Positions 3,855-56,180 of a DNA stretch of 64,000 nt are shown here, piece by piece. The notes beneath the pieces were generated by a model. The model did not search any database and had not been told where the DNA came from. It saw only the letters and a list, made by a program, of their open reading frames with translations. Numbering within the stretch: the stretch's first letter is position 1; each line of letters opens with the position of its first letter. Source of the DNA: Trypanosoma brucei (taxonomy: Eukaryota); NCBI GenBank assembly GCA_000002445.1, contig CP000066.1:256001-320000 (forward strand), in the 5' to 3' direction. The translations under genes and the position numbers were made by a program.

Positions 3855-5055
3855 ATGAAGAACAGTGTTGCGCGCACTCAACCAGTGCGCAAGTATGAGA
3901 ACTTTACTTTGGAGAATAACTTACCGTTGGCACTGGGGGCCAATTTTCACGATGACCCAATTTGTCGCGATACAAACAGAACTAGTCACACGTTACTGTT
4001 GCCACGGAATGTAGACTATGCCCCCCATACAGAGTACGTATTTAATGGAGGTGGCTTCAATCGGGAAAATAAGATGAGAACTATTGATGAAGAGTTTGTC
4101 GATGAGGACGAGCCTGTGTTTGATGGTTGGATGACAGTAAACTTTGATAACCCCGATGACGCGAAGGATCACGTTGTGTCCTTTCTTGCGTACTTTGTGG
4201 AAGATATTCCAGAAGGGACTGAGACTAAGATCGTGAGGAAGGTTTGCATTCGTTATTACACACAGGATAATAGCATATCTGTGCAAGAGGCGAAGCAACA
4301 AAACAGTGGTATTGTGCAATCGACCATTCTGTCCCGAAGACAAGTACCGAGAAGAATGGACAACATCAATGATATTGTTATGCTGGAAGACTTCCAAATA
4401 GGTGGAACAATTACGTTATTCAGCAGAGAGTATCATATTCTTGACATGGATGCGAGAAGCCGCCTTTATTATAAGAAGGTACTTGGTCAAACAGTGCCAG
4501 AACCGTTGCCGTGGCCAATTGAGATTGACAAATTCACTACAATGCAAGCTCAACTATCCAAAAGCACTCATCGTCTTGCTACATCTGAAGATATGGACCA
4601 GAAGCGTGCGATTGAACAACAACTGACTGGTATTTACACGAAGCATCCCACGGAAGATATTCTTACAGCTCAAAACTTCCTTCGTCATAACATAAATGAG
4701 CACCTGACATTTTTAGCCCTGTGGGACGATCGCGAAAGTCTTAGTGGCGACCTTCGCTTTGTTGTGATTCGTCTGTATCTAGAGAATAACACTGTGGAGA
4801 TTATTGAGAGAAGACAAGAAAATTCCGGGCGAATGGGCAGTTCGGTGATTTTGGGCCGTCAGCGGGTTGCTCGCCCCGGTGCGGAAGGGAGCAAAATCCG
4901 TTTCCAGGAGCATACGTTTGGTGTTATATTAAAGCGGGACTTTCTTGTGGCAGAAGACATGAAAGTGGGAGAAACATATCATATTCACGGTCGACCCTAT
5001 TTTATATACGATGCCGACGAAGCAACACGCCGTTACATGAAGAACGAACTTGGTA
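3855..5055 (+). CDS. EFHC1: N-terminal fragment of the EFHC1/Rib72-like gene (upstream of IS10 insertion)
   Basis: ORF track 3855..5093. Two DM10-type segments. The last 38 nt of that ORF are IS10 sequence. Confidence 0.75.
5047..5055. repeat. Left copy of 9-bp target-site duplication AACTTGGTA generated by IS10 insertion (right copy at 6385-6393)
   Basis: Identical 9-mer immediately abuts both IS10 termini. 9 bp is the TSD length made by IS10/Tn10 transposase. Confidence 0.9.
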
Positions 5056-6384
5056 CTGATGAATCCCCTAATGATTTTGGTAAAAATCATTAAGTTAAGG
5101 TGGATACACATCTTGTCATATGATCAAATGGTTTCGCGAAAAATCAATAATCAGACAACAAGATGTGCGAACTCGATATTTTACACGACTCTCTTTACCA
5201 ATTCTGCCCCGAATTACACTTAAAACGACTCAACAGCTTAACGTTGGCTTGCCACGCATTACTTGACTGTAAAACTCTCACTCTTACCGAACTTGGCCGT
5301 AACCTGCCAACCAAAGCGAGAACAAAACATAACATCAAACGAATCGACCGATTGTTAGGTAATCGTCACCTCCACAAAGAGCGACTCGCTGTATACCGTT
5401 GGCATGCTAGCTTTATCTGTTCGGGCAATACGATGCCCATTGTACTTGTTGACTGGTCTGATATTCGTGAGCAAAAACGACTTATGGTATTGCGAGCTTC
5501 AGTCGCACTACACGGTCGTTCTGTTACTCTTTATGAGAAAGCGTTCCCGCTTTCAGAGCAATGTTCAAAGAAAGCTCATGACCAATTTCTAGCCGACCTT
5601 GCGAGCATTCTACCGAGTAACACCACACCGCTCATTGTCAGTGATGCTGGCTTTAAAGTGCCATGGTATAAATCCGTTGAGAAGCTGGGTTGGTACTGGT
5701 TAAGTCGAGTAAGAGGAAAAGTACAATATGCAGACCTAGGAGCGGAAAACTGGAAACCTATCAGCAACTTACATGATATGTCATCTAGTCACTCAAAGAC
5801 TTTAGGCTATAAGAGGCTGACTAAAAGCAATCCAATCTCATGCCAAATTCTATTGTATAAATCTCGCTCTAAAGGCCGAAAAAATCAGCGCTCGACACGG
5901 ACTCATTGTCACCACCCGTCACCTAAAATCTACTCAGCGTCGGCAAAGGAGCCATGGGTTCTAGCAACTAACTTACCTGTTGAAATTCGAACACCCAAAC
6001 AACTTGTTAATATCTATTCGAAGCGAATGCAGATTGAAGAAACCTTCCGAGACTTGAAAAGTCCTGCCTACGGACTAGGCCTACGCCATAGCCGAACGAG
6101 CAGCTCAGAGCGTTTTGATATCATGCTGCTAATCGCCCTGATGCTTCAACTAACATGTTGGCTTGCGGGCGTTCATGCTCAGAAACAAGGTTGGGACAAG
6201 CACTTCCAGGCTAACACAGTCAGAAATCGAAACGTACTCTCAACAGTTCGCTTAGGCATGGAAGTTTTGCGGCATTCTGGCTACACAATAACAAGGGAAG
6301 ACTTACTCGTGGCTGCAACCCTACTAGCTCAAAATTTATTCACACATGGTTACGCTTTGGGGAAATTATGAGGGGATCTCTCAG
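5056..6384 (+). mobile_element. IS10: Complete bacterial insertion sequence IS10 (IS4 family; the IS of Tn10), 1,329 bp, with outside end CTGATGAATCCCCTAATGATTTTGG... and inside end ...GGGGAAATTATGAGGGGATCTCTCAG
   Basis: Seen directly: the terminal sequences match the IS10 outside and inside ends as I remember them. The length is exactly 1,329 bp. It carries one 402-aa ORF whose sequence I recognise as the IS10/Tn10 transposase (MCELDILHDSLYQFCPELHLKRLNS...HGYALGKL). It is flanked by a perfect 9-bp direct repeat. Its composition and codon usage are unlike the surrounding trypanosomatid DNA. Confidence 0.93.
5163..6371 (+). CDS. tnpA: IS10 transposase (DDE transposase, IS4 family), full length 402 aa, no frameshift or premature stop
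   Basis: ORF-track protein 5163..6371 is recognisably the Tn10/IS10R transposase, and it lies entirely inside the IS10 ends. Confidence 0.93.
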   Translation: MCELDILHDSLYQFCPELHLKRLNSLTLACHALLDCKTLTLTELGRNLPTKARTKHNIKRIDRLLGNRHLHKERLAVYRWHASFICSGNTMPIVLVDWSDIREQKRLMVLRASVALHGRSVTLYEKAFPLSEQCSKKAHDQFLADLASILPSNTTPLIVSDAGFKVPWYKSVEKLGWYWLSRVRGKVQYADLGAENWKPISNLHDMSSSHSKTLGYKRLTKSNPISCQILLYKSRSKGRKNQRSTRTHCHHPSPKIYSASAKEPWVLATNLPVEIRTPKQLVNIYSKRMQIEETFRDLKSPAYGLGLRHSRTSSSERFDIMLLIALMLQLTCWLAGVHAQKQGWDKHFQANTVRNRNVLSTVRLGMEVLRHSGYTITREDLLVAATLLAQNLFTHGYALGKL

Positions 6385-6393
6385 AACTTGGTA
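6385..6393. repeat. Right copy of 9-bp target-site duplication AACTTGGTA
   Basis: See left copy at 5047-5055. Confidence 0.9.
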
Positions 6394-7532
6394 TTGAACT
6401 CGCACCGTGTGTAGACATAAAGCCTATCCTTGCCTCCGACGAGAAAAAGCCAATAATATTCTTTCCTCCCCCACCAAACGGCTTTGGGAGCGAACGAGAA
6501 AACCGATCAAGTTGGCTAACTTTAAATCCAAGGCCGATGCGCCGTGATGTTGAAAAAATTGAAAAAGAAGAGGGCAGGGTCATGAATTTTTTGGCGGAGT
6601 TGGCCAATCCTTTGGTCCGCGGTGATGAGAAGAGGAGATTTGTTATATCCTTTTTTAGAGAAACTGATGAAATGTCTATTTATGAAAAACCCGAACGGAA
6701 CTCAGGTTACCTTGCCGGGAGGTTTCTTGCAAAAGGTGTTTATCGGAAACCAATGCCAGATGGCTCAACCGTTCCCTACACGGCAGAGGACTTCCAGGTT
6801 GGGAAGGAGATTACAATACTTGAGCGTCCTTTTCGTCTCCTCGATATGAGTGAAGAGACGAAGAGGATACTTACCGTAACGGAGCAACTCCCTTCTGAGC
6901 AGCGGCTGAAGGAGTTACTTCTTTTATTCAAGCAGCAAATTCAGCTAAAATTTACTCGTGGCCACGAAGCCTACTGTACATTGGCTCCTAAGGGAGTATT
7001 GGGCTATCGTCAGGTTCGCGAATTCTTAAGGTCGTGTAGCTGTTCTATAACCGAGGACGAAGCACTCCTCCTCGTACACAACCTCGTTCCTTCTAGTGCC
7101 GGAGTGATTTCATTTAATGAGTTCATGGATTTGGTGAACATAACCTCTTCAGAACATATGGATGAAGCTTCACTGACGGTGCGCTCTGTAAAGAGCGTAA
7201 ACATGACAAAAGACGAATCACTGAAGACAGTAGCTATCAAAACAGAGGACGTGAAACGAAGGAAACAGCTTGCAGTTGAGTTACGCCAAAAGTTGATCCA
7301 AAGGAAGGGTTCCGTACAGGAGCAGTTTCGCCTCATTGGTTGCCACAGCGCATCATCCCGGTTAAATCGAGATGTTTTCCGCCACTCACTGAACGAAGTA
7401 ATGCACTTTAACGTTCCTAAGACGGACGAGGATATGCTTGTGTCACTCCTTTTCGATGGGAGAGCTGACGAAAACGGCGACATAACGTACAAGCAATTCC
7501 AAGAATTCCTTGAGGTTCAGGATGATATCTAG
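6385..7532 (+). CDS. EFHC1: C-terminal fragment of the EFHC1/Rib72-like gene (downstream of IS10). The ORF track starts at an internal Met at 6537, but the frame is open from the IS10 end.
   Basis: Same frame as 3855. Third DM10-like segment and EF-hand-like C-terminus. Confidence 0.75.
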
Positions 7533-14153: not shown

Positions 14154-14402
14154 TCTTTTTTTCTGACTTATCCTTTCAATGGTTTAAAGTAGATCGTGCT
14201 CTGACTCTTATTTTTGCCACCGAGCCGTTTCGGTGTGCCCGAAGGGAGAGTCCTTTAACTTTTGCTCCAGGTTATCCACGCTGTGGAATTTCTCATGGAT
14301 TTACATCATCAGCATTCAACGAAGGAGCACGTGACCATTGCTGCCGAGGCGTAACAATATGTCAGGAAAGAAGAGTATTGTACAATCATTCATGAAAATA
14401 AT

Positions 14403-14405
<3 letters not shown>

Positions 14406-14437
<32 letters not shown>
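14406..14437. repeat. (AT)16 microsatellite in the exonuclease–IFT38 spacer
   Basis: Seen directly. Confidence 0.95.
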
Positions 14438-14440
<3 letters not shown>

Positions 14441-26257: not shown

Positions 26258-27598
26258 TTGTGCCCATGGTTTCGGTCATATAATGAACTAAGCGTTGGTT
26301 GGGGTATATTGATATCATTCACTTTTATCATTTTTCCCCCCTTGTCAAGTTACTTGGATTCGTGTCTACGCTACCATCAAGGGAATAGCAGTGTGAGGAA
26401 TACAATGTCTACCGATGGCAGTGAAGTCATTGACGATAACAAAACTGTAAGGAGTCTCTTTAACGGACTAGCACAGAGGTACAAGGACACCGTTTTGAAG
26501 AGTGAGACGTCCATCGAACAAGATGAGAATTCACGCTCTCTTATTCCACATTTGGAGAAGCTATGGTATATGATGGGTGCGATGGGTGTTGTTTCCCCTA
26601 ACGAACAGTTGGATGATATTTCTACGAACGCGTTGGAATTGTTATGGACTCCTTACATCATTGCAGATCTCTACCAGCGCCTACAGGGACCTATGCCCAC
26701 TCCAGCACCGGTCACTCCAGGCGAAACAAATGAAGTTGCTGGAGCTGCGGGAATGACACGTGAGGAGGCCCTTTCTCGTTCGCATCACTGGTATGATGTT
26801 TTCTTCCGTTGGGCACAGGACTGCGAGTTGGTGGACGAACGGACGCTGGACACATATCGCACGTTTCGTGCGGACAATCGCACACAACGCGTGGAGCTCT
26901 CCCGGAAGCGCCGTGAGCTGGAGGTGGTACTACTCCAATATGAGGATAAGGTAGAGTACTTACAAGCAAAAAGAAAACGTATGAAGGAGCTGATGGCGGA
27001 AGACGGTGACGAAATATCTGAAAGTAACGGGGATGAGGAGGAAGCACTCCGGGGTCGCGCTCTCGCACGGTTGCGTTGGTCTGTTTACGAGGCTTGCCAT
27101 CACCTGCAGTTGTCAGCGCGCGAGTTGGAAATGCTCACGGCATTGTCACCAGAGAGGCGGCAAGAAATAGCAAACAACCACCAGCGTACGTTGGATGCTG
27201 TGCGTCGGGGAGAGTTATCACTTGGTCGGCACACGTACACTATCCTACCAGGTGGTCTCGTCGCACCGGGAGGACCGTTTCCTGTGGACCGCATTAACAG
27301 TACCGTTATGAGCGCGATAGCAAGCCAGGAGAGTTTCCGTCAGAAAGTCGTGGAAGAGTTGATGATAAACAGGAATAATCCAACTATGACGTTGGCAGAG
27401 TTCGCCGACGCGGAGATGGCAGATGTGCAGCGTCGCATGGAGGCAAACGCAGATGCGCAGCGGCTCCAACAAGAAGAGGATGAGTTACTTGGGCCTGAAG
27501 GAGTTGAGGAGCGTCAACGGAAGCGGGACTCGGCTCTAGCTGATTGGAAGGATGATCACCCCCCAATTGGCCAAACTGCAAGAGGAAACTACGCATGA
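26258..27598 (+). CDS. TAP42: TAP42/alpha4 (IGBP1) family PP2A-type phosphatase regulator. The likely start is the internal Met at 26405 (MSTDGSEV…).
   Basis: TAP42-family block SPNEQLDDISTNALELLWTPYIIADL (cf. SRNEDLEEIASTDLKYLLVP). C-terminal PTMTLAEFAD and terminal DWKDDHPPIG…RGNYA match the alpha4 C-terminus (PTMTVSDW… / EWDDWKDTHPRGYGNR). Confidence 0.75.
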   Translation: MCPWFRSYNELSVGWGILISFTFIIFPPLSSYLDSCLRYHQGNSSVRNTMSTDGSEVIDDNKTVRSLFNGLAQRYKDTVLKSETSIEQDENSRSLIPHLEKLWYMMGAMGVVSPNEQLDDISTNALELLWTPYIIADLYQRLQGPMPTPAPVTPGETNEVAGAAGMTREEALSRSHHWYDVFFRWAQDCELVDERTLDTYRTFRADNRTQRVELSRKRRELEVVLLQYEDKVEYLQAKRKRMKELMAEDGDEISESNGDEEEALRGRALARLRWSVYEACHHLQLSARELEMLTALSPERRQEIANNHQRTLDAVRRGELSLGRHTYTILPGGLVAPGGPFPVDRINSTVMSAIASQESFRQKVVEELMINRNNPTMTLAEFADAEMADVQRRMEANADAQRLQQEEDELLGPEGVEERQRKRDSALADWKDDHPPIGQTARGNYA

Positions 27599-28022
27599 GC
27601 CGGCAATTACTCTGGCTTGCATGACAGACGCTTCCTAAGGGACCGAGCGGCGCCTACAATTATGTGTAGCGACGACCTGCCCAAGTGGTTGTTAGGTAAT
27701 CACTGTTTTCGTAGCCGTTTTTTTTTTCGTGAAGGTAAAACGTGCTTCAAAAAGTACTAGTTTTAGATGCATCACTGGTCTTTTGAAACTGCCGCTTGTC
27801 GCTGCCTGGCCAGTGCCACTCCTTTTATTGCATGGTCTGCAGGGTGTTTTTGACGGTTACATACACGTTCCGGATGGACCACATGTTATGCTGGCGTGCT
27901 TCCCCTATCGAATCGTGGAGGTGAGGGGCTCTCGCGTCATTCTGTACAGCTTCTTCGCCGGTTGAGGGTCCATTCGTTTACCAACTCCCACGCAATTGTA
28001 CGTCGCTATATATTATGGAAGT

Positions 28023-28213
28023 TCTTCGATGTTGTGGCGTGGTGTGTTGTGTTGTGTTATCCTTTCCCGCAGGTATGTTATTAGTGGTGAACCCAACTCT
28101 TTGTAGCTAACCGCATGACACGTTTGAGGCCTCAACCCTTCGCATATCGCTTAATGGTGTTTTTCTCTCTAATCTTTTTTCCTTTCTTGACGTGAACTGT
28201 TGCGGTTAGTTGG
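28023..28213 (+). repeat. Copy A of a 191/192-bp dispersed intergenic repeat (about 98% identical to copy B at 43391-43582, same orientation). It contains a polypyrimidine tract followed by AG.
   Basis: Direct visual alignment: tcttcgatgttgtggcgtggtgtgttgtgttgtgttatcctttcccgcaggtatgttattagtggtgaacccaactctttgtagctaaccgcatgacacgtttg[a/g]ggcctcaacccttcgcatatcg[c/g]ttaatggtgtttttctctctaatcttttttcctttcttgacgtgaactgttgcggttagttgg. There are only 2 substitutions and 1 single-T indel between copies. Confidence 0.85.
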
Positions 28214-28557
28214 ATCCGTGTGTATTACCTTGCTCTCTTTTTGTTGAGTTGTATGAATGTGGTTGCGTGGGCCGTACCTTTGGGGTCTCTGCGTTAACTT
28301 TCCAACGGATTTTCTGCACGAATAAACCTTTCTTTCCTTTTCCTCTTATATTATCTCTTTTCCCACCGCCGACGTATGTGTCAAGTGTGGGTACACTTCG
28401 GTGGAGCCTAACAGGTAATTTTTAGTCCGTGGCACTGGGTCACCACCTGTGCCCAGCTCCTCGGGCTCGTGTTGAGGGGTGGCGGTTGCTTCGTCATACC
28501 AGTGCGTTAAAAAGGGCGCTTTTGTGCAGCAGGTTCAAAAACTATAGTAGCAACTAA

Positions 28558-31098
28558 TTGCCGATAACTTCTGCTGGAGTAAAAGTCGCTCTCGGTTTGT
28601 CGATGCCGGGCTACCCCACGGGATTGTTACTGGGCTGTCGAATGTCTTCGCGGCCTCGTGTATCATGGCTTTCGCCCGCGCTCGCTTCCCACCAACAACT
28701 TGATGCAGGGATCGCTGCACGACACCAGGTGGACCGTAAAAGTATTAAAAAGTCCAAACGCCCCTTCGAAAACTATTTTCGGTCGGAATACCGCTGCTCT
28801 CCATCACCCAGTAGGTTCACTCTGCGCCCAGGTGGCCGGGTTTCATCGTACGACGCAGTGAAACTCATGACTGATCCTAGGCGCAACTGGTCACCCTTTT
28901 GGGGCCGCGTTGTGGGTAACGTGCGGACACAAAAGAAGCGACAGGATGTGTTGCAACCTGCACCTCAGCAGTTCGGCGAGGACAGCCTTGACCAAACAAT
29001 ACAACGTTTCCTAGAGCTTCGCTTTCAATGGGATCGTGGGGATGACATCCTTGCTCCGAGTTTGGTTCCGCCTAGTTTGTATAGTTTGACTGAGCACTGT
29101 CTTCCGTACGCGTGTGATGAGCAACAACAGCAGCAGACGGTTAGCGACTGCGTAGAGTTAGACGGGGGTGGCGCACACTCATCTGCATTCCGTGCGCGGG
29201 GAAGGCGGAAGTGCTTGTTAGTACCCAGAGGAAATTTAGGTTCAAGTGGTGTTGAAACTATCCCTTCTATTGTTCTCGATGCAGCAAGAGGTCCTCTTGT
29301 GTCATCGCCGACGGAACTTTCGTTGAACCTGCGTTGGAAGGCAACGAACCGTGAGGCCACCAGTGTAAGTGAGGTATTGCGTTTGCAGCAGTGTGTAGGG
29401 CATGTGCCTGTCATGGGTATGACGGCACGATCATTGCTACTTTTGCTGAAAGCTCATGCCACCGCTGAGGTCGAGAATCCCCCACTGGCCGTTGCTCTCG
29501 CTATAGCAGCTGCGGAACACTACCACGAATACACCCCTACTGAGTGTTTGGAGCTTCTGCGGTGCCTACGTAGGGTTGCCTTTGTGAAGGGGTTGACGCA
29601 GCTGTCGCACTCACAGGTTAATGTTGTTTCTTTGTACCGTGACTCGAGACACTCCCAGATGTTTTTCGCAGGGTATATAGGAGACGCAGCCCCTTTTTTG
29701 GTAGAACGTGTATGGTCTCGCCTTCCCGAGCATGCTCAACGGCTCTGTCGGCGACGACTCTTCCTCGACTTTATAGATCTACTAGCACTAGCGGTAGAAA
29801 TGAATGGCTGGAGGTTCCCGTGTAATTTACCGAACCCCGCCAGCTCCGCAACTTATGCATCCAAGTATCTCTTCTTGCGCTATACACTGCAGTTGGATGA
29901 AGCCATGATGACAGAGTATGTGAGGTGCGTTGCAGACGCAACATTTTCCGCACCGCAGACCGAACTATATACAAATGTTGGCGGACAACAGCAAAACTCG
30001 AGGCAACTGATTGCCAGTCGCTGTGATCCAGATGACAGCGAAACCTTATTCACTCCACTTATTACATGGCTGTGTGTGTCTTTTTTGGCTCGTGTTACTG
30101 CAGAGGCCGTCGGGGATGTACTGCGGCACACTGAGATATCTCTCAAGCAACACATGAAACTTGCCAAAGATTATCAATCGGCGGCAGCGCGCGGGAAGTC
30201 GAAACTACAGCGACTAAAGGCTGAGAGGGACCTGCAGCAGTTCCTTGACAGCATTGCGCTCGTGAGGCCACGACATCATGTATACCAGTGCATTGGGCGT
30301 CGACACCCGAGGAAGATGCGCCTCCGTGTCATTCCGCTTGAAGCCTTTCCTGCAATATCGCGACACACAGGGCTTCCCTTTGGATCGGCGTCGCGACACG
30401 CGCACCTGTCCGCAGAGAGGCGGTGTGGAAGTTTTGAACATGACGATTGGACGTTCGAAGCTGTTGTAGCTCGTTCAGCTCTCGCACGGAAGCACATCGA
30501 GCGCGCTAAGGATGCGCTGGACTGGGCCGCAATGATGCTGACAAATTGTGCAGTAATTGCCAGACACATTCCGACCCCGGCCAAACGGCTAGAAGCTTGT
30601 GGTCCCAAGCATACGTTTGTATTCCCTGCCGCATCTCATCTACCGTCAAGCATTGATGCAGCAAGTAATCGTCTCGCTTGGTGCGAGGCGCTGGTGCGGT
30701 CCCGTGTGCAAGAGGACATAGACTCGCTTTTCCTCCACATACCCTGGTGCGAACTGGAGGAGCAGCTGCAGCCATTTTTAGATTCCGAGGGGAAAGCTAA
30801 CGGTATTGAAAGTAAGGAAGGAACCCAACGTGCTGGTAAGGTCACAACAGCAGGGGATGATGGGACCAGCTTGTTGGATGCATATTTTCCTTTTGACTTT
30901 CTGGACAATTCCGGCGGGACTGGTGACTGCAGGCAGGTGCCGCCCATCGAATATGATGACGCAGAGCACACAAAGCACCCGAAGACGGCGCAGCAAGATC
31001 AGAATTCTCTAGAGGCGCTCCAGGTTAGTATCGAAAAGTTTCAAGTTACCGTGGCGGAGTTGATCCGCGCACAGGAGGATTACTTTCTGATTCTTTAA
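28558..31098 (+). CDS. Hypothetical protein, 846 aa
   Basis: Long + strand ORF. No motif recognised. A short QQQQQ run. Confidence 0.6.
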   Translation: MPITSAGVKVALGLSMPGYPTGLLLGCRMSSRPRVSWLSPALASHQQLDAGIAARHQVDRKSIKKSKRPFENYFRSEYRCSPSPSRFTLRPGGRVSSYDAVKLMTDPRRNWSPFWGRVVGNVRTQKKRQDVLQPAPQQFGEDSLDQTIQRFLELRFQWDRGDDILAPSLVPPSLYSLTEHCLPYACDEQQQQQTVSDCVELDGGGAHSSAFRARGRRKCLLVPRGNLGSSGVETIPSIVLDAARGPLVSSPTELSLNLRWKATNREATSVSEVLRLQQCVGHVPVMGMTARSLLLLLKAHATAEVENPPLAVALAIAAAEHYHEYTPTECLELLRCLRRVAFVKGLTQLSHSQVNVVSLYRDSRHSQMFFAGYIGDAAPFLVERVWSRLPEHAQRLCRRRLFLDFIDLLALAVEMNGWRFPCNLPNPASSATYASKYLFLRYTLQLDEAMMTEYVRCVADATFSAPQTELYTNVGGQQQNSRQLIASRCDPDDSETLFTPLITWLCVSFLARVTAEAVGDVLRHTEISLKQHMKLAKDYQSAAARGKSKLQRLKAERDLQQFLDSIALVRPRHHVYQCIGRRHPRKMRLRVIPLEAFPAISRHTGLPFGSASRHAHLSAERRCGSFEHDDWTFEAVVARSALARKHIERAKDALDWAAMMLTNCAVIARHIPTPAKRLEACGPKHTFVFPAASHLPSSIDAASNRLAWCEALVRSRVQEDIDSLFLHIPWCELEEQLQPFLDSEGKANGIESKEGTQRAGKVTTAGDDGTSLLDAYFPFDFLDNSGGTGDCRQVPPIEYDDAEHTKHPKTAQQDQNSLEALQVSIEKFQVTVAELIRAQEDYFLIL

Positions 31099-39003: not shown

Positions 39004-39733
39004 TCTGGACAGTTTGTTTCGGCTGTTTATTGAGCATTGGACTGCTCGGTGCGTGAGAGAAAAGACAAAATTTCCCCTTTAGAGTGCAGGGGTTTGGCCA
39101 CTCACTTTTCTACTAAGTTGGACTTGATGTATAAGAAACACGCAGAAAATAAAACAAAAAAGTGAAAACAAGAGAACGCCACATGATTCACCTGTTTTTG
39201 CATTGTCAGTGGCAGAATAGAAGAGCATGGCGATGCTGATTCCCACTCTATTGTTGTTTGTGCAGGCTGTTTTTTTTTTGCCTGCGGTGGTGTGAGTGTG
39301 TACAGAACAGGTAGCATTATATATGTATACCGAATTGTTTGAACTATTATTATACTTTGGGATTGCCACTCTTTTCCCCATTTGTCAATTTAACTTTTCC
39401 ATTCCCCTTTCTTTCTGTTTCTCCCCCGCTAAAATGTACTTGGTTCAGAAGCACAGGAAAAGAAAAGGATATTGGAATACAAACCGTGGCCACTGGGCCT
39501 CCTCTTTTTTTTTTTAACATAGACAGTTTAGCATCAACAGATACATTACTGTGTTACGACCCTTCCCTTTTGCTTTTTTTGTTTTCTCAGAATCATTCTA
39601 AAGGTACCCTTTCACTTTTTGTCATCGTTGTTACCACCACTCCTGTTGTCTGCAACGCAGCAGAGAGAGAGAGAATTCGAAGACCAGCGGCTCCGCACAG
39701 CGCTTGGGGAGTACCTTTTAAAAAAAAAAACTA

Positions 39734-42091
39734 TTGTTTGTTTTACAAAGTTCGGGGCCTGGGGTTGCCATGAGTTTGCATGTCGGTAACGGTTTGCAGC
39801 AAATGGAGAAGAAACAATGTGTCTCCTCGTGCCTGCTGCTGACGTCGCTGCACGTGCGAGGGCCCCTGCCCCTTCCGTCAGCGCGGTCGTTAGTTGCCAG
39901 TGTTTGTGTCGGTACTTCTTCCATTACGACAGATGTTTTGCAGCCCGTGATGTCAGATGAAGTGAGTGGTTCTTCCGTGCCTTTGTCTCCGGTGTTTCAG
40001 CGCGCTTCGTCGACTCATCAGCGGTTGGCCTCCGCCAGCAGTGTTATTGGGTTGGAACCCCTTCGCATTATGTTTCCTCTCATCGACGACGACGCATGTC
40101 ACGGTGACGGCGGCTCGGGTTCTGCACAACCGCACAAGTACGAGTTTTGTATAGGATTGCGCGAGGCTGATAGCAATGCGTTATTAGGCGTCGCCATATG
40201 TACGCGGTCGGGCGCGTGGTTCCCCTTCAAACCATGTGGGGGATCTGCACGTATAACGTTTAGATACTGTGAGCAGATGGAACGGAAGAATCGAATACTG
40301 CGGCACTTACAGGAGGCGCAGTTGTATCCAACTTCTTCTGACACGAAGATGCAGTCCGATGCTTCGTGCAAGCTGGAGGCCTCGTCTTCCTTCCTTGCAC
40401 CTACGGCCTCCTCTGTTCTCTCAGCAAGTACATCCTTCGTGGACGGTGGCGGTCCGGGGAAGGGTTCCAGGCCCACACACAGTGGCTTGTCGGCCACCGA
40501 TGCACTTGCCGTTGCGCGGCCGCATTCAGCGTGTTCCTCGCCAAACTTTCCGCTGCTTCCTGCAACCGACACAAAAGTCAAACCGGAAAATGAACATTCA
40601 AGTCACATTATGTCCGTTCCCAACGTTACAACTGAGGGACCACGTCACCTTGCGAGTTCGAATGTTGCCACCAGTCAAACATGCAAGAAGGAACCGCGCA
40701 GAAATTATCATTGTGGATTAAATCCTATCTCTGTAAATGGTTTCTTTACAACATCTGATCCGTGCCCCCCTGGTGGGTTGCGGGAGCGTGAGGGCCAGCC
40801 GCGCAGCCTTGTCTTCTCGAACATACATGTGAAGGGCTTCTTTCCACTTTCCCTAACCGGTAGTTGGCGATTGGAGTTCCTAATACCGCACCCCTGCATA
40901 CCGGTTACGAAGCACACGGTAACTGTGCCAGCTACCTTCGACACAGACGGCAGCAGCGCACTTCGTGACACTCTCACGGTTGACCTTCCGTTATTCCTTA
41001 GAGGTGAGGTGCAGACGCGGCTGCGCGCCACGTGGGTCGACAGCAATAATTTGGACGATATAACGGAGGTACCCACGGTGGTGGAGTTTGACCCTATTGT
41101 TATCAAAGTAGGAGGAAGTGAGGTGTGTCAGCAGGAAAGGCGTTACCACAAGCTAGTTAGGCACAGTGCGGAGAAGTTCACGCTGTCCGAACTCGGCGTG
41201 CAACTGCTAGTGGCATTAAAGTATTTTGCCCCTCATCGGGAGGGACAGAACGGTCGACCCACCAGCGCACATTCAGACGCTCGACTTTGGAGGTCTGCGA
41301 TGGCTTGGAGGGAGGGGGAAAAGGATGCTGACGCTGTGAAAACTAAGGGTAACGGTCTTGGCAAAGGAGGGGACGGAGCAGATATGGACGTACGTTTGCC
41401 TGAACTACAGACAGCTGCAACTCCAGATGGGAAGAACATGAGCAAAAACAGTATATTTACTGAGGAAGCGATGTCCGCAAAGGCCCTTTCGTTTGGTGAT
41501 AACGCTAGCCAATCGAATGCCCACAGGAGTCCACCTTCCAAGGAGGTGCCTCCTCCACGACGGGCTTCCAAAGAGGAAGTTCGTAACCCAGGAATGGGCC
41601 ACTTTAGTACGCTGAAACCTGCAACTAATGCACAATTGGTTGCGTCAATGGACGATTTAGTGCCGTGCTACACTGAAGAGCAGCGGAGGGCTGTTTTTGC
41701 TCTCTACGACACTAACAACAGAGGCTACATGACACAGGAGCAAATACTTCACTTCTGTCGTGCTCATGTAGCCCTGTTCGATGGACACCAAAACGATGCG
41801 AATATTGTGCGGCTACTTCAATCTCTGTTCCCCCGAATGCCCCGGAGGCGTATGAATGCTACAGAGGCCGCTGCAAAAGCCACATCCTCCTATTTACTGC
41901 AATCCCGTAAGCCTTGTGCACCGGCGCTGGAACAGCGCTTAAAAAATAGAGGACTACAAACACCAAGTGGGCGTCCGACATCAGGTCAGCACACGGCGGG
42001 TGGCTCCCCACAGGGCGCGTTAGGCTTGCCGAGGAGGTGCATAACGTATGACATATTTGAGGTTATTGCCCTTCGCCTTGCCGGAATGTAG
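39734..42091 (+). CDS. Hypothetical protein, 785 aa, Ser/Ala/Thr-rich with a degenerate C-terminal EF-hand-like loop
   Basis: Long + strand ORF. LYDTNNRGYMTQEQILHF resembles an EF-hand loop but is non-canonical. Confidence 0.55.
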   Translation: MFVLQSSGPGVAMSLHVGNGLQQMEKKQCVSSCLLLTSLHVRGPLPLPSARSLVASVCVGTSSITTDVLQPVMSDEVSGSSVPLSPVFQRASSTHQRLASASSVIGLEPLRIMFPLIDDDACHGDGGSGSAQPHKYEFCIGLREADSNALLGVAICTRSGAWFPFKPCGGSARITFRYCEQMERKNRILRHLQEAQLYPTSSDTKMQSDASCKLEASSSFLAPTASSVLSASTSFVDGGGPGKGSRPTHSGLSATDALAVARPHSACSSPNFPLLPATDTKVKPENEHSSHIMSVPNVTTEGPRHLASSNVATSQTCKKEPRRNYHCGLNPISVNGFFTTSDPCPPGGLREREGQPRSLVFSNIHVKGFFPLSLTGSWRLEFLIPHPCIPVTKHTVTVPATFDTDGSSALRDTLTVDLPLFLRGEVQTRLRATWVDSNNLDDITEVPTVVEFDPIVIKVGGSEVCQQERRYHKLVRHSAEKFTLSELGVQLLVALKYFAPHREGQNGRPTSAHSDARLWRSAMAWREGEKDADAVKTKGNGLGKGGDGADMDVRLPELQTAATPDGKNMSKNSIFTEEAMSAKALSFGDNASQSNAHRSPPSKEVPPPRRASKEEVRNPGMGHFSTLKPATNAQLVASMDDLVPCYTEEQRRAVFALYDTNNRGYMTQEQILHFCRAHVALFDGHQNDANIVRLLQSLFPRMPRRRMNATEAAAKATSSYLLQSRKPCAPALEQRLKNRGLQTPSGRPTSGQHTAGGSPQGALGLPRRCITYDIFEVIALRLAGM

Positions 42092-43390
42092 AGAGAGAGA
42101 GAAAAGAGAAGGAAGTAAAAATAAGTCCGTCATCACCGTCTTTCACGGAGCGCGGGAGTGGCGGTCTTTTTTGCGATGGAAACCAAATTACCCAAATCAT
42201 CATCGATTACGGAGGAGGAGGAGGAGGAAGCAGGAGTAACAAGTGGGAGTGGTATATAAGGGAGCATGTGTGGGAGTTGCGTGTTGACTCCTTCACTTAA
42301 AAACAGCTTATTTGGATGCGCGTTAGAGTGCTGCGGTGACCGGTAAGCCGACACGGCGCGGTGGGATCCTTCACACTGCTGTCGGTGGTTTCCTTTGTTT
42401 TTCTTTCTTTCTTGTTCGTAGTTGTTAAACTTACCTTTGCTCTTTACCATCCACTCTTCGCTTTTTTATTTGCTTATTTCTTTTCCCATTACTATTATTA
42501 TTATTATTTTCATCATTTTTGTTGTTATTTCTCTCGCGGTGGATACCTCGCTATGTTTGCTCGACTTCGCTATATGCTAAATGGGCCAGGTAAGAGAATG
42601 ATTGGAATGAGCGGCATTGAAACCGCAGGAGCACGTTTTTATGGGGAGGAGGAGGACGATTTGTTTATAGAGAAAAGAAGAAATGATTAAAAAAAAAGAG
42701 CAATTGGCTAGAGTTGCTTAGAATGTAATACAAGAAGTGGTGGTTGTGGGAGAGAGTGAGTCAATGTGATAATCGGCAAGAGCAGGTAGCACAAATAAGT
42801 TTGGTTTCCCCTCTCTTGCTCTTACAAGCACAAACGCAGGCACCCCACGGGGAGAAGCGCAACCATATACGTACTTGGTTGTGGTGTTAAAGAAGGGTCG
42901 AAACCGAGGGTAGCCTGCTTGTATCTGTGCGTTTACGCCACTATGATTTACCGGGTGCGTCACACACTGTTGTGACCAACGTGATGTACTTTTTTTCTTT
43001 TCTTCTTAACACGCTGAGCCTCTTTTCAGCAGAAGGTTAGAAGCACTGAAAAGAAAGGAGTAGGTCCAAAAACAATATGTGACCGTCAGTTGCTCTCACA
43101 TTTCTCAGATTTTAAGATAAAATTGGACTATGCTGTGAGGACGGGCGTTGTGGGGTATGCGTTCCACGAGTCATCCATATAGACGCACTCCTTGAACAAG
43201 AGGGGCATGATCATTTACAAGTTCGCAACCCACTAAAGGATGACAAAAAAACACCGGCGGTAAGGCAGCGTCTGCAAAGCTAATAGTAGCTGTGTGCAAA
43301 CGGTGCTCAAACAATTACTTACATATGAAAACAGGTATATGCACATGCGCATTTGGAAAACATTTTATCCTTTTCACCTCGAGAGAATTC

Positions 43391-43582
43391 TCTTCGATGT
43401 TGTGGCGTGGTGTGTTGTGTTGTGTTATCCTTTCCCGCAGGTATGTTATTAGTGGTGAACCCAACTCTTTGTAGCTAACCGCATGACACGTTTGGGGCCT
43501 CAACCCTTCGCATATCGGTTAATGGTGTTTTTTCTCTCTAATCTTTTTTCCTTTCTTGACGTGAACTGTTGCGGTTAGTTGG
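43391..43582 (+). repeat. Copy B of the 191/192-bp dispersed intergenic repeat (see 28023-28213)
   Basis: As for copy A. It lies about 250 bp upstream of the Sec24 start codon. Confidence 0.85.
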
Positions 43583-43833
43583 GTTCACATGCGCTACTTT
43601 TGACCTCCTCATCTTTGTGTATTGTCAGTCACGTAGGCGCAGGCATCGGCTGCATTTGTATGTAGGGGTACTTATGCGAGCACGTCTGCATGTGCAAGTT
43701 TCTGGCGTAACGGCATCAGTGACTGCACCGCCGTCTCTGTGTGCAATGCGCGCCAGAATCGGCAGAAGAGCTATCCGTGTTTCCGTAATGCCCTACCCCG
43801 TATTTCATCAATTCATTACTTTTCCATACTTTT

Positions 43834-46776
43834 TTGTTACTAGCCAAATTTAGGATGTCGTACCCACACAACTTTGACCACCAGGCGCCACCTCTACAAC
43901 AACTGCAGCAACAAGTACCTCCTCCATTACCACACGGGTCGTGGGCTCCGCAGCCAAACCAGGGTCCAGGTGTACCATTTAATGGTGTGGGTCCGGGGAT
44001 AACGGGAGCTTACGGCGCGGCAAGTGCCTCGGGTAACGCACCTACGGCACAGGATTGGTACTACAACCAATGCCCCACTTCGGCTTCCGGTGCACCTTAT
44101 AGCAATGGGACGAACAACTTCGCCTACACACCCGAGATGCAGTACCAACCGCCGCACGCGCAGCAGCAACAGCAGCAGCAACAACTGTCGTATAAAATTC
44201 CATCGGCGGCGGCAGCCCAACCATCATTCCCAGGCCTCGGTGCGACGGCGGCAAGTTCTCCCCACACGCCCGCTACCGTTGGTCAATATTCTGAACACCC
44301 ACCTGCCGCCCGGCACCACGACGTTTCGGAACGCAACGAGCATCGGGGAATTCCTTGTCAGGAGAACTTACGTTCCTTTCCTGCGCCTCAGTCACGGCAT
44401 AGTGCAGATTCAGAGAGACAGTCCACCGGCCCCCCACCTAATTATGTGCGTCCTCCTCCGAGACGCGCTGTGGACCTCGTTAAGGCGCCTAACCCTAATG
44501 AGTGTGTACCTCCTTCCTCGGACAGTCTCATGTCCAACCACTCTAACCTCCAGTTTCCATCTGGTGCAGATGCCAACATTAGCAACGCAAGCGTAAAGTT
44601 TTTTCGACCGACGATGAAGTGGGTGCCCGCAAGTGCCAATCTCGTGAAGGACAGCCGCGTGCCATTTGGGGCTGTGATTGCCCCTCTTTGCCAACCCGTT
44701 GATCCGCAGGAAGAGGTTCCGTGTGTTTCCGGTTACCCACCCGTTCGGTGTCAGCGCTGCCGAGCTTATGTTTCTTGTCACGCGCGCTTTACAAACATGG
44801 GTCGAAACTGGGTTTGCCCTCTCTGCAGTATGTGCAACGATGTGAGCGAAGAGTACTTCTGCAACTTAGATAATCAGGGCCAGCGGTTGGATAAGATGCA
44901 GCGACCAGAACTTTCACGGGGGAGCGTGGAGTTCGACGTGGATGCATATCCTGAGTATGCGTTACGGAACAGCGATGATGCGGCTCTCGAAGCTAGACCA
45001 CTGCATTATCTGTTTCTGTTGGATGTGTCGGTAAAGGCGGCAACGACATTTCTGTCTGACTATGTGGATGCTTTACTCCGCTCACTTCACGAGATGGCAG
45101 TTCAGTATCCCGAGTGCCGCGTTGCCTTTATCACGTACGCATCAACGCTTCACTTCTATAATGTCCGTCACCCTCGCATGCCCCAAATGATTGTTTCAGA
45201 CGTGTGCAACCCGTTCGTACCCCTTCCCTTCACGAGTCTCTGCTGGCTTACACTCGGCACTGAGTTAGACTTGGTGGATGCGTTCTTGTTGCGTGTACCG
45301 GAGTATGCGAGTGACCTCTGTGAGACCGGCTGCGTGCTGGGTGCTGCGGTGGAGGTGGCAAAACTCGTGTTGTCCGGGCAGCATGGTGGTCGCGTTATTA
45401 TAACCGCGCATAAGGCACCACAAAATGGGATCGGCGCTATCAAACCGCGCGAGCAGCATGTCCTATACGGAACGGAAAAGGAAAAGGAACTGCTGCGCCC
45501 GCTAGACGGATACTGGCAGACGATTGCAACCACGTGTGCAAAGGAGCAGATTTCACTTGATTTGCACATGTTCGCCGATGAATATTGCGAATTGGTGACC
45601 CTCTCACATCCCTGCCACGTCACAAACGGCCGTGTACATCTCTTCTCCAACTACGATAGTCAAACTGACGCCGTTGAACTGCAGGCTGTGCTTGATCAGG
45701 CGCTGTTAGAGGAGGCCGGTTATGCTGGTATACTGCGTGTTCGCTGCAGCACCGGTCTGCGTGTTCAGAGGTATCATGGACATTTCTTCTCCCAAGACAA
45801 GCACGATATGGATCTTGTTCACGTTCAGGGCTCCTCCTCCTTTTATGTTGAATTTGCGCATGAGTCGAAGCCTGATAGCAGTTCTGCCGCATACTTTCAA
45901 ACCGCGTTACTGTACACCACGCGTAGGGGCAATCGTCGGGTGCGCGTTCACTCAGTGCGAATACCGATAGCTTCGTCTATTTCATCAATTTTCGATGGAG
46001 ACACTGTGGCAGTCCTGATGGCGTACATACACCAGGTTATTTCTAATTCGGTGAACAAGGGGTTGAAATACGCTAGGGAACAGATGCATCAGCAACTGTT
46101 ACAACTGTTAACTAGCTACCGCCGTGTTGTTTCACAGAAATCCACATCGGTGCTGCTTATGCCTGGTAGCCTCCGTCTTATGCCACTCTATACGCTGTGT
46201 GTCCTGAAATCCGATGCAATTGCCGAGGGTACTACTGTTCGTATCGACGACCGGGTGCAGAAACTCTTTCACTTACTTACTGTTCCCACTCATCAATGCC
46301 TTTCGTACTTTTACCCCACCCTTTACGCCATGCATTCGTCGATGGAGGAAACGTTCTGTGGGGCGATAAACCCCGAGACCGGTGACTGCGTTATGCCACC
46401 GCGGAAACGACTGTTCTACGAAAGTATTACAACTGACGGTGTGTACATTCTTTGTGATGAGCAGGCACGGTCGGTGTACTTGTGGGTTGGCTCTGCTGTG
46501 ACGCCTGAGATATCTTTGGAGTTGTTCGGAACGGCGAATTCAGCAGAGGTGGGGCGCAGCGTATTCTTCGATCACTTTGGGGAGCGGCTGCGGAACGTAC
46601 TGTGGGCTTGCCTGAATCGTGATGGACGCATGCGGCGTTTGGTGATTTTGCATCAAAAGGACCGGGGTGAGGAAGCTTTCTTTAAGCAACTGAAGGAAGA
46701 AGGTGAAGGAGGAACGATGAGTTACGACCAACTACTGTTGAAACTGCACAAAGCGGTGGGCGAGTTGGCGCTATGA
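43834..46776 (+). CDS. SEC24: COPII coat component Sec24
   Basis: Gln/Pro-rich N-terminus. Sec23/24 zinc finger CQRCRAYVSCHARFTNMGRNWVCPLC. Trunk/beta-barrel/helical/gelsolin-like C-terminal organisation. 980 aa. Confidence 0.85.
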   Translation: MLLAKFRMSYPHNFDHQAPPLQQLQQQVPPPLPHGSWAPQPNQGPGVPFNGVGPGITGAYGAASASGNAPTAQDWYYNQCPTSASGAPYSNGTNNFAYTPEMQYQPPHAQQQQQQQQLSYKIPSAAAAQPSFPGLGATAASSPHTPATVGQYSEHPPAARHHDVSERNEHRGIPCQENLRSFPAPQSRHSADSERQSTGPPPNYVRPPPRRAVDLVKAPNPNECVPPSSDSLMSNHSNLQFPSGADANISNASVKFFRPTMKWVPASANLVKDSRVPFGAVIAPLCQPVDPQEEVPCVSGYPPVRCQRCRAYVSCHARFTNMGRNWVCPLCSMCNDVSEEYFCNLDNQGQRLDKMQRPELSRGSVEFDVDAYPEYALRNSDDAALEARPLHYLFLLDVSVKAATTFLSDYVDALLRSLHEMAVQYPECRVAFITYASTLHFYNVRHPRMPQMIVSDVCNPFVPLPFTSLCWLTLGTELDLVDAFLLRVPEYASDLCETGCVLGAAVEVAKLVLSGQHGGRVIITAHKAPQNGIGAIKPREQHVLYGTEKEKELLRPLDGYWQTIATTCAKEQISLDLHMFADEYCELVTLSHPCHVTNGRVHLFSNYDSQTDAVELQAVLDQALLEEAGYAGILRVRCSTGLRVQRYHGHFFSQDKHDMDLVHVQGSSSFYVEFAHESKPDSSSAAYFQTALLYTTRRGNRRVRVHSVRIPIASSISSIFDGDTVAVLMAYIHQVISNSVNKGLKYAREQMHQQLLQLLTSYRRVVSQKSTSVLLMPGSLRLMPLYTLCVLKSDAIAEGTTVRIDDRVQKLFHLLTVPTHQCLSYFYPTLYAMHSSMEETFCGAINPETGDCVMPPRKRLFYESITTDGVYILCDEQARSVYLWVGSAVTPEISLELFGTANSAEVGRSVFFDHFGERLRNVLWACLNRDGRMRRLVILHQKDRGEEAFFKQLKEEGEGGTMSYDQLLLKLHKAVGELAL

Positions 46777-48195: not shown

Positions 48196-48209
48196 ATATA
48201 TATATACAT

Positions 48210-48259
<50 letters not shown>
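48196..48259. repeat. Compound microsatellite (AT)n(AC)n(AT)n followed by (TTTA)n, immediately upstream of the SLX1-like start
   Basis: Seen directly. It explains the spurious Y/I-rich ORFs 48159..48434 and 48187..48405. Confidence 0.95.

Positions 48260-48264
<5 letters not shown>

Positions 48265-56146: not shown

Positions 56147-56178
<32 letters not shown>
56147..56178. repeat. (TA)16 microsatellite upstream of the PPP4R2-like gene
   Basis: Seen directly. Confidence 0.95.

Positions 56179-56180
<2 letters not shown>

What the first reader, a model, noticed from the sequence alone, without database searches (positions are those of the whole stretch)
28023..28213. 191-bp dispersed intergenic repeat with built-in polyY-AG, copy A (partner at 43391-43582)
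Two about 98%-identical, same-orientation copies lie 15.4 kb apart. Each sits in a spacer a few hundred bp upstream of a large gene (the 846-aa hypothetical gene and Sec24). The unit contains gtgtgttgtgttgtgttatcctttcccgcag, a pyrimidine tract plus AG suited to act as a trans-splice acceptor, followed by gtatgtt. Such near-identity in non-coding DNA implies recent duplication, gene conversion or selection. It could be a short interspersed/SIDER-like element, a shared 5'-UTR regulatory cassette, or the footprint of a segmental duplication whose other parts have diverged. It also generates matching spurious ORFs (27896..28084 and 43292..43474).
Basis: seen in the sequence. Interest (0 to 1): 0.55.

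Follow-up and report, generated by a model that had tools for sequence, protein, structure and literature searches.

The report
Two-copy spacer repeat homogenised by gene conversion
Two near-identical 191-bp pieces of non-coding spacer DNA lie 15 kb apart on Trypanosoma brucei chromosome 3; they are real, but they are not the splice-acceptor sites of the genes after them, and they stay alike because one copy was recently overwritten by the other, which is ordinary genome behaviour.

Summary
Copy A (28023-28213) and copy B (43391-43582) differ by 2 substitutions and 1 T-run indel. Their edges are sharp, and they are the only copies in the window.

The window is T. brucei TREU927 chr3:256001-320000. 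Copy A lies between Tb927.3.1170 (TAP42) and .1180; copy B lies between .1200 and .1210 (TbSec24.1).

Published SL mapping (Kolev 2010) puts the predominant splice-acceptor sites at window 28386 and 43844. These are 173 and 262 nt downstream of the repeats, and each has its own polypyrimidine tract. The "built-in acceptor" idea is therefore not supported.

Copy B lies inside the mapped long 3'UTR, or UTR-internal transcript, of Tb927.3.1200 (3' end at 43714).

The repeat has no Rfam match, no fold signal, no snoRNA boxes, no TSD, TIR or A-tail, and no coding potential. Its neighbouring genes are not paralogues.

In T. b. gambiense and T. b. equiperdum both copies exist, but copy A differs from copy B by 6-7 substitutions plus a 5-nt deletion. 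In TREU927, copy A carries the B state at every one of those sites while its flanks remain A-type. That points to ectopic gene conversion, B to A.

It belongs with the low-copy intergenic direct repeats already described in trypanosomatids. Genome-wide copy number could not be measured. Interest is low.

The parts
28023..28213 (+). Repeat copy A (191 nt), in the spacer between Tb927.3.1170 (TAP42-like, stop 27598) and Tb927.3.1180 (ATG 28603)
   Evidence: Orthologous copies are at L004:9422-9608 (gambiense) and L005:9422-9608 (equiperdum).
43391..43582 (+). Repeat copy B (192 nt), in the spacer between Tb927.3.1200 (stop 42091) and Tb927.3.1210 / TbSec24.1 (ATG 43855)
   Evidence: Orthologous copies are at L002:9537-9728 and L003:9538-9728.
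28041..28057 (+). GT-rich (TGTTG)n-like tract inside the unit. It is the site of the 5-nt TGTGT deletion seen in copy A of gambiense and equiperdum.
   Evidence: alignment columns 51-55
28160..28208 (+). Internal polypyrimidine tract (28160-28188) plus the next AG (28207-28208). It looks like a trans-splice signal, but no SL use is reported there.
   Evidence: motif; Kolev Table S12 gives other sites
28327..28385 (+). Context: the real polypyrimidine tract and AG of Tb927.3.1180. The predominant SL-addition site is at 28386 (chr3 284386), outside the repeat.
43814..43843 (+). Context: the real polypyrimidine tract and AG of TbSec24.1. The predominant SL-addition site is at 43844 (chr3 299844), outside the repeat.
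39449..43714 (+). Context: the longest mapped Tb927.3.1200 transcript (Kolev Table S3, 'alt 3UTR'), which contains copy B. The predominant poly(A) site is at 42900, and a likely internal acceptor (polyY 42989-43007 plus AGs at 43016-43036) lies just after it.
43577..43588 (+). Right arm of a 12-nt inverted repeat found only at copy B (left arm 43455-43466). It straddles the right edge of the A/B homology.

Best explanation
This is a low-copy, non-coding direct repeat: a 191-bp patch of spacer/3'UTR DNA copied once to a second spacer 15.4 kb away on the same polycistronic unit of T. brucei chromosome 3. The copying happened before the Trypanozoon strains diverged. The two copies are long and similar enough to pair in homologous recombination. 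In the TREU927 lineage, copy B overwrote copy A by ectopic (non-allelic) gene conversion over at least 150 bp, which is why they are about 98% identical in this genome. The unit is transcribed as part of the distal 3'UTR, or a UTR-internal transcript, of the upstream gene. This is shown for copy B and inferred for copy A. It is not where the spliced leader is added to the downstream genes. It most likely has no sequence-specific function of its own. Its main biological consequence is as a recombination substrate, through conversion and potentially deletion or circularisation of the three genes between the copies.
For: Shown:
- The pair is real, with sharp edges and only two copies in 64 kb.
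- Both copies are present at orthologous sites in T. b. gambiense DAL972 and T. b. equiperdum.
- In those two genomes A and B differ by 6-7 substitutions plus a 5-nt deletion. TREU927 A differs from gambiense B by 1 substitution and 1 indel, but from its own orthologue (gambiense A) by 8 substitutions and 2 indels.
- The 60 flanking bases group strictly by locus (0-1 vs 37-39 differences).
- One derived base (alignment column 133, T) is shared only by the two TREU927 copies.
- Between strains the repeat is not better conserved than the spacer around it: A 4.2% vs 3.1% and 1.8%; B 1.6% vs 1.0% and 0.7%; Fisher p = 0.22 for A. This gives no sign of extra constraint.
- There is no Rfam hit even at E<=10, no tRNA, fold z-scores of +0.88, +0.76 and -0.54, and no C/D or H/ACA boxes on the + strand.
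- No protein among 5.8 billion matches any frame of the unit.
- The window offset to Tb927_03_v4 (256000) is validated: 5 of 5 published predominant acceptor sites fall right after a polyY tract and AG.
- The acceptor sites of .1180 and .1210 lie outside the repeat.
- The Tb927.3.1200 transcript maps to 43714 and is flagged 'alt 3UTR'.

From the literature:
- Low-copy intergenic repeats that recombine are a described class in trypanosomatids, with 773 reported in T. brucei (PMC4028189).
Against: - Genome-wide copy number was not measured, because no tool here holds T. brucei DNA for nucleotide search. 'Two-copy' is proven only for this 64-kb window.
- The conversion inference rests on three genomes and on polarity. 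A rival reading is that all 7 changes plus the deletion accumulated on the gambiense/equiperdum A haplotype. This is less parsimonious (binomial p = 0.016 for 7:0) and does not explain the shared column-133 base, but it is not excluded.
- No outgroup (T. congolense) could be fetched, so the donor locus and the age of the original duplication are unknown.
- The 3'UTR location of copy A is inferred from the usual spacing of about 130 nt between poly(A) site and acceptor site; no poly(A) site of Tb927.3.1170 was found in the tables held.
- The SL data are from procyclic forms only.
- Lack of excess conservation has little power at 1-4% divergence.
Confidence: 0.62

Rival explanations
1. The two copies are members of a larger, so far uncatalogued, short dispersed element family of Trypanozoon (a mobile-element relic or SINE-like unit) with further copies elsewhere in the genome.
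For: The edges are sharp and the flanks unrelated. Both copies have the same orientation relative to transcription and sit similar distances upstream of the next acceptor site (173 and 262 nt). Genome-wide copy number was not tested.
Against: The unit has no target-site duplication, no terminal inverted repeats and no A-rich tail, and no tRNA-like part. There is no third copy, even a degenerate one, in 64 kb. No ORF called in any public assembly overlaps a copy (weak evidence, because the ORFs at the two known copies are not in that collection either). No empty site was seen in three genomes.
Confidence: 0.15
2. It is a shared 3'UTR regulatory cassette that co-regulates the upstream genes Tb927.3.1170 (TAP42-like) and Tb927.3.1200 through an RNA-binding protein site, and it is kept alike by selection.
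For: Copy B lies inside a mapped 3'UTR / UTR-internal transcript. Copy A lies where the 3' end of the .1170 UTR is expected (inference). The unit is U-rich with a UGUA core.
Against: The unit is not more conserved between strains than the neighbouring spacer. Copy A in gambiense and equiperdum tolerates 7 substitutions and a 5-nt deletion. The predominant poly(A) site of .1200 (42900) excludes copy B from most of that gene's mRNAs. The pattern of similarity is explained by conversion without invoking selection.
Confidence: 0.12
3. It is a portable trans-splice acceptor cassette supplying the SL-addition site for both downstream genes, perhaps used in stages that were not sampled.
For: The unit contains a 29-nt pyrimidine-rich tract followed by AG (28160-28208), and a weaker tract plus AG at 28060-28072.
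Against: The predominant acceptor sites are at 28386 and 43844, outside the unit, each with its own tract. The averaged 5'UTR lengths (213.8 and 11) do not exceed the predominant ones (217 and 11); they would if sites giving 5'UTRs of about 394 or 277 nt were used appreciably. No novel transcript is listed between these genes in Table S12.
Confidence: 0.04
4. It is a small structured non-coding RNA gene (for example a snoRNA) present in two copies.
For: T. brucei snoRNA genes are often repeated and lie in spacers or 3'UTRs (Kolev 2010, Figure S7 legend).
Against: There is no Rfam match at E<=10 or at gathering level. Fold energy is no better than shuffles on either strand. No box C, box D or ANANNA motif occurs on the + strand. 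The substitutions between A and B in gambiense are not arranged as compensatory pairs in any stable helix.
Confidence: 0.03

Closest known systems
Low-copy intergenic repeated sequences ('repeat alignment groups') of trypanosomatids, used for homologous-recombination rearrangements (Ubeda et al. 2014, PLoS Biol, PMC4028189; T. brucei example of repeat-mediated deletion: Wargnies et al. 2021, PMC8065229)
   Same: The pair is non-coding and intergenic, on one chromosome, with two members, well above 85% identity and in direct orientation, bracketing a few genes. The evidence here that the copies have recombined (gene conversion) fits their role as recombination platforms. Ubeda et al. report at least 773 such repeats in T. 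brucei and PCR-confirmed rearrangements at four pairs.
   Different: At 191-192 bp it falls just under the 200-bp cut-off used in that screen, so it is probably not in their list, which is not held here. No crossover product (circle or deletion) has been looked for at this pair. What is documented here is the non-crossover outcome.
Concerted evolution of duplicated sequences by gene conversion in T. brucei tandem arrays (Jackson 2007, BMC Evol Biol, PMC1855330)
   Same: Paralogous copies within one genome are more alike than orthologous copies between genomes, while the flanks follow locus history.
   Different: The copies are not a tandem gene array. They are 191 bp of non-coding DNA, dispersed 15.4 kb apart, with unrelated genes on both sides.
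SIDER1/SIDER2 (Leishmania) and RIME (T. brucei) short retroposon-derived elements in 3'UTRs
   Same: It is a short repeated unit lying in 3'UTR/spacer DNA, in sense orientation to transcription.
   Different: It has no target-site duplication, no A-rich 3' end, and no evidence of many copies. SIDERs are about 0.5 kb and number in the thousands; my own knowledge, and for counts in L. major.
Trypanosome trans-splice acceptor signal (polypyrimidine tract + AG)
   Same: The motif is present in the unit.
   Different: Mapped SL addition for both downstream genes is elsewhere.

Membership tests
Trans-splice acceptor signal | Polypyrimidine tract followed within a few tens of nt by AG | tested here: met
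   28160-28188 (TTTTTCTCTCT AA TCTTTTTTCCTTTCTT), then AG at 28207-28208; a weaker 9-nt tract at 28060-28068 plus AG at 28071-28072
Trans-splice acceptor signal | Spliced leader actually added at that AG for the downstream gene | tested here: not met
   Kolev 2010 Table S12 gives predominant sites at 284386 and 299844 (window 28386 and 43844), outside the repeat. Averaged 5'UTR lengths do not exceed the predominant ones. Data are from procyclic forms only.
Retroposon-derived short interspersed element (SIDER / RIME type) | Target-site duplication directly flanking the unit | tested here: not met
   No shared k-mer of 6 nt or more abuts both ends of either copy
Retroposon-derived short interspersed element (SIDER / RIME type) | A-rich / poly(A) 3' end | tested here: not met
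   The unit ends ...GCGGTTAGTTGG; its other-strand end is ...CATCGAAGA
Retroposon-derived short interspersed element (SIDER / RIME type) | Shared 5' signature of the ingi/L1Tc clade | not tested
Retroposon-derived short interspersed element (SIDER / RIME type) | Many dispersed copies in the genome | not testable with these tools
   Only 64 kb of TREU927 plus about 45 kb of two other strains could be read, showing two copies. The metagenome scan had 0 hits.
Low-copy intergenic recombination repeats of trypanosomatids (Ubeda 2014) | Non-coding, intergenic, identity at least 85%, copies on the same chromosome | tested here: met
Low-copy intergenic recombination repeats of trypanosomatids (Ubeda 2014) | Length 200-2,500 bp (operational cut-off of that screen) | tested here: not met
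   191-192 bp. The cut-off is stated; the authors note that shorter repeats may also recombine.
Low-copy intergenic recombination repeats of trypanosomatids (Ubeda 2014) | Recombination between the copies | tested here: met
   A non-crossover exchange (gene conversion) is inferred from three-genome discordance between repeat and flanks. Crossover products (circle or deletion) are not testable here.
Structured non-coding RNA / snoRNA | Match to a curated RNA family, or a fold more stable than shuffles, or C/D or H/ACA boxes | tested here: not met
Concerted evolution by ectopic gene conversion | Paralogues within a genome closer than orthologues between genomes, with flanks following locus history | tested here: met
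   TREU927 A vs gambiense B: 1 substitution + 1 indel. TREU927 A vs gambiense A: 8 substitutions + 2 indels. Flanks: 0-1 differences within a locus, 37-39 between loci.

The most novel reading that the evidence does not exclude
The 191-mer is the visible tip of an uncatalogued Trypanozoon-specific short element. It would sit at the distal end of 3'UTRs (or in UTR-internal, SL-capped, polyadenylated transcripts) and act as a post-transcriptional cassette, a functional analogue in T. brucei of Leishmania SIDER2. Alternatively, the direct pair could be a used platform for excising or amplifying the three-gene, 15.4-kb segment Tb927.3.1180-1200.
Probability: 0.08. Interest if true: 0.5.

Novelty: new member of a known kind. 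Interest (0 to 1): 0.2.

Why it matters
It matters little on its own. It is a clean, small example of non-allelic gene conversion between dispersed non-coding repeats in the core of a T. brucei chromosome. It shows that a 191-bp homology, just below the cut-off of the published genome-wide repeat screen, is enough for the two loci to exchange sequence. For annotation, the point is practical: a polypyrimidine tract plus AG in a spacer is not evidence of an SL-addition site, and near-identity of non-coding DNA within one genome need not mean selection. If the pair also undergoes crossover, it would delete or circularise three genes, which a junction PCR can test.

Tried and rejected
- Rfam at gathering level on the window and at E<=10 on spacer A found nothing at the repeat.
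- ARAGORN found no tRNA.
- RNA folding of both strands of A and of B plus flank gave z-scores of +0.88, +0.76 and -0.54.
- Motif checks for box C/D, TSD, TIR and A-tail were all negative.
- Paralogy of the flanking genes was tested; there is none.
- To count further copies through ORF calls, I searched a 284-aa concatenate of all stop-free frames of the unit against 5.8 billion proteins. There was no hit at E<=10, and exact look-up of eight spurious ORFs found none in the collection. The approach therefore has low sensitivity.
- A metagenome scan with a 28-mer gave 0 hits.
- Attempts to fetch the TREU927 and T. equiperdum OVI loci failed as 'not on record'.
- The T. congolense orthologues (P0002, P0035) have no contigs, so there is no close outgroup.
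- The T. vivax syntenic locus L001 has no trace of the unit. This is uninformative, because spacers are not alignable at that distance.
- The Logan contig L006 starts at about the Sec24 ATG and does not reach copy B.
- Supplements of Nilsson 2010, Siegel 2010 and Michaeli-lab 2011 are either not held or lack these genes.
- Kolev Tables S4 and S5 (all sites) are truncated in the held copy, so minor sites could not be listed.

Full report
**Observation.** The window holds two same-strand copies of a 191/192-nt unit, at 28023-28213 (A) and 43391-43582 (B). They differ by two substitutions and one base in a T run (98.4% identity; blastn E = 7e-93 within the window). Similarity ends abruptly at both edges. 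A word-size-7 blastn of the unit against the whole window, and of one spacer against the other, finds no third copy and no weaker similarity beyond the unit. The unit is T-rich (77 T of 191). It has a GT-rich (TGTTG)n-like tract near its 5' end and a 29-nt pyrimidine-rich tract near its 3' end. The two 'matching' ORFs it mentions exist but read different frames of the unit.

**Where we are.** All large ORFs are on the + strand. The Sec24 homologue is 100% identical to T. brucei brucei TREU927 Sec24C (accessions). That gene is Tb927.3.1210 = TbSec24.1. Window coordinate + 256000 gives the coordinate on Tb927_03_v4. With that offset, all five predominant SL-addition sites published for Tb927.3.1170-1210 fall immediately after an AG preceded by a pyrimidine tract. 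The gene order is:

| Gene | Window coordinates |
|---|---|
| Tb927.3.1170 (TAP42-like, Pfam) | 26405-27598 |
| copy A | 28023-28213 |
| Tb927.3.1180 | 28603-31098 |
| Tb927.3.1190 | 32020-39003 |
| Tb927.3.1200 | 39770-42091 |
| copy B | 43391-43582 |
| Tb927.3.1210 (TbSec24.1) | 43855-46776 |

The flanking proteins show no similarity to one another. The pair is therefore not the remnant of a gene-level duplication.

**Is it the splice acceptor?** No, on the available data. Kolev et al. 2010 (PMC2936537), Table S12, gives the predominant acceptor of Tb927.3.1180 at 284386 (window 28386, 5'UTR 217 nt) and that of Tb927.3.1210 at 299844 (window 43844, 5'UTR 11 nt). These sites lie 173 and 262 nt downstream of the repeat ends. 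Each is preceded by its own pyrimidine tract, at 28327-28370 and 43814-43841. The read-averaged 5'UTR lengths (213.8 and 11) do not exceed the predominant ones. They would if AGs inside the repeat, which would give 5'UTRs of roughly 394 or 277 nt, were used to any real extent. No novel transcript is listed between these genes in Table S12. The data come from procyclic forms only.

[quoted passage not shown] The mapped transcript runs 295449-299714 (window 39449-43714). Table S13 puts its predominant poly(A) site at 298900 (window 42900). According to the paper, such genes yield a full-length transcript, a shorter ORF-containing one, and a putative non-coding UTR-internal transcript with its own SL and poly(A). 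A strong pyrimidine tract at 42989-43007, followed by AGs at 43016-43036, fits the internal acceptor (inference). Copy B therefore lies in the distal 3'UTR of the long Tb927.3.1200 mRNA and, by inference, in the UTR-internal transcript, 132 nt before its 3' end. For copy A no poly(A) site was found in the tables held. At locus B the poly(A) site lies about 130 nt before the next acceptor. By the same spacing, the Tb927.3.1170 transcript should end near 28250, which would place copy A at the very end of its 3'UTR (inference).

**Is it an RNA gene, a coding piece or a mobile element?** None of these is supported:
- There is no Rfam match, even at E<=10, and no tRNA-like part.
- Fold energies are no better than shuffles on either strand.
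- No C/D or H/ACA boxes occur on the + strand.
- All frames are broken by stops, and the T-run indel shifts the one ATG-started frame.
- A concatenate of all stop-free frames finds nothing among 5.8 billion proteins.
- There is no target-site duplication, no terminal inverted repeat and no A-rich end.

**Comparison between genomes.** The syntenic loci of T. b. gambiense DAL972 (L002, L004) and T. b. equiperdum (L003, L005) both carry both copies at the orthologous positions. The T. vivax locus (L001) shows nothing, as expected for unalignable spacers.

The six-sequence alignment and its distance table are the key result:
- In gambiense and equiperdum, copy A differs from copy B by 6-7 substitutions and a 5-nt deletion.
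- In TREU927, copy A has the B state at every one of those positions.
- TREU927 A is 1 substitution + 1 indel from gambiense B, but 8 substitutions + 2 indels from gambiense A, its own orthologue.
- The 60 bases flanking the unit group strictly by locus (0-1 differences within a locus, 37-39 between loci).
- One base (alignment column 133) is T only in the two TREU927 copies.

The simplest account is an ectopic gene conversion in the TREU927 lineage in which B overwrote A across at least positions 28043-28192. After that, two substitutions arose in B and one T was lost in A.

The alternative is that all changes accumulated on the gambiense/equiperdum A haplotype. This is less parsimonious (7:0 polarity, binomial p = 0.016) and needs a parallel mutation at column 133. 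It is not excluded, because spacer A is itself unusually diverged between these strains (3.1% and 1.8% in the flanks against 4.2% in the unit; Fisher p = 0.22).

**Selection?** Between strains the unit is not better conserved than its neighbouring spacer at either locus. Copy A in two genomes tolerates a 5-nt deletion. This argues, with limited power, against strong sequence constraint. The similarity of A and B in TREU927 is explained by conversion alone.

**What it is like.** Ubeda et al. 2014 (PMC4028189) screened trypanosomatid genomes for intergenic repeats on the same chromosome, using cut-offs of 200-2,500 bp and at least 85% identity. In L. major most families had very few members, and 242 of 507 had just two. 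In T. brucei they found at least 773 such repeats and confirmed rearrangements at four pairs by PCR. A natural example of repeat-mediated deletion in T. brucei is described in PMC8065229. The present pair fits that class in every respect except that it is 8-9 bp shorter than the operational cut-off, so it probably escaped that list, which is not held here. Concerted evolution by conversion is well documented for T. brucei tandem arrays (PMC1855330). Here the same process acts on dispersed non-coding DNA.

**Limits.** TREU927 itself and T. equiperdum OVI were not retrievable, and T. congolense had no contigs. The donor locus and the age of the first duplication are therefore undetermined. One hint that B is the source is a perfect 12-nt inverted repeat present only at B, whose right arm straddles the right edge of the homology. 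This is unexplained and may be chance.

**Verdict.** The pair is real and far beyond chance, but ordinary. It is a low-copy intergenic direct repeat lying in 3'UTR/spacer DNA and homogenised by ectopic gene conversion. It is not a splice-acceptor cassette, an RNA gene or a recognisable mobile element. I rate it a new member of a known kind, with interest 0.2.

Noticed in passing
window 5056-6384 (TSD copies at 5047-5055 and 6385-6393): A complete 1,329-bp bacterial IS10 sits inside this trypanosome chromosome sequence. Evidence: Rfam RNA-OUT at 98.8 bits at 5101-5170 (-), a 402-aa DDE transposase at 5163-6371, and 99.4-99.7% identity to IS10/ISVsa5 copies in about 2,000 E. coli genomes. It is flanked by a perfect 9-bp target duplication, AACTTGGTA. 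Removing the IS and one duplicate joins ORFs 3855..5093 and 6537..7532 into one 779-aa DM10-domain ORF. It is almost certainly an insertion acquired while the clone was grown in E. coli, so the reference sequence and gene models here are artefactual. Kolev Table S13 gives Tb927.3.1040 a poly(A) site at window 7693 (3'UTR '2645 nt'), which is 161 nt after the stop of the restored ORF.
   Followed up: yes
window 43455-43466 and 43577-43588: A perfect 12-nt inverted repeat (GTGAACCCAACT / AGTTGGGTTCAC) is present only at copy B. Its right arm is half repeat and half B-specific flank, so the A/B homology ends in the middle of a potential hairpin arm. This may be a clue that B was the donor, or it may be chance.
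   Followed up: partly
window 42900-43714: The distal 3'UTR of Tb927.3.1200 is flagged by Kolev 2010 as alternatively processed. The predominant poly(A) site is at 42900, a strong pyrimidine tract lies at 42989-43007 with AGs at 43016-43036, and the final 3' end is at 43714. This implies a UTR-internal, probably non-coding, transcript of about 0.7 kb that contains copy B.
   Followed up: partly
L002:5469-8240 (gambiense orthologue of Tb927.3.1200) vs window 39449/39770: The gambiense gene model is 923 aa against 773 aa in TREU927. Its start maps to about window 39323, upstream of the mapped SL-addition site (39449). The longer model is probably a start-codon misannotation.
   Followed up: partly
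window 14398-14440, 48196-48260, 56150-56180: Three long (AT)n / (AC)n microsatellites lie in spacers. They account for all other 'repeat families' and inverted pairs reported by the repeat finder.
   Followed up: no
window 27599-28602 vs L004/L005: The spacer between Tb927.3.1170 and .1180 is unusually diverged between TREU927 and gambiense/equiperdum (about 2.5% substitutions, against about 1% in the .1200-.1210 spacer and 0.1-0.5% in coding DNA). This suggests a deep haplotype split at this locus.
   Followed up: partly
window 50319-53165: The 948-aa ORF two genes downstream of Sec24 is a kinetoplastid Dicer-like protein. The gambiense orthologue carries Pfam La_HTH_kDCL and KptA_kDCL. From my own knowledge this is probably TbDCL2; I did not check it.
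   Followed up: no
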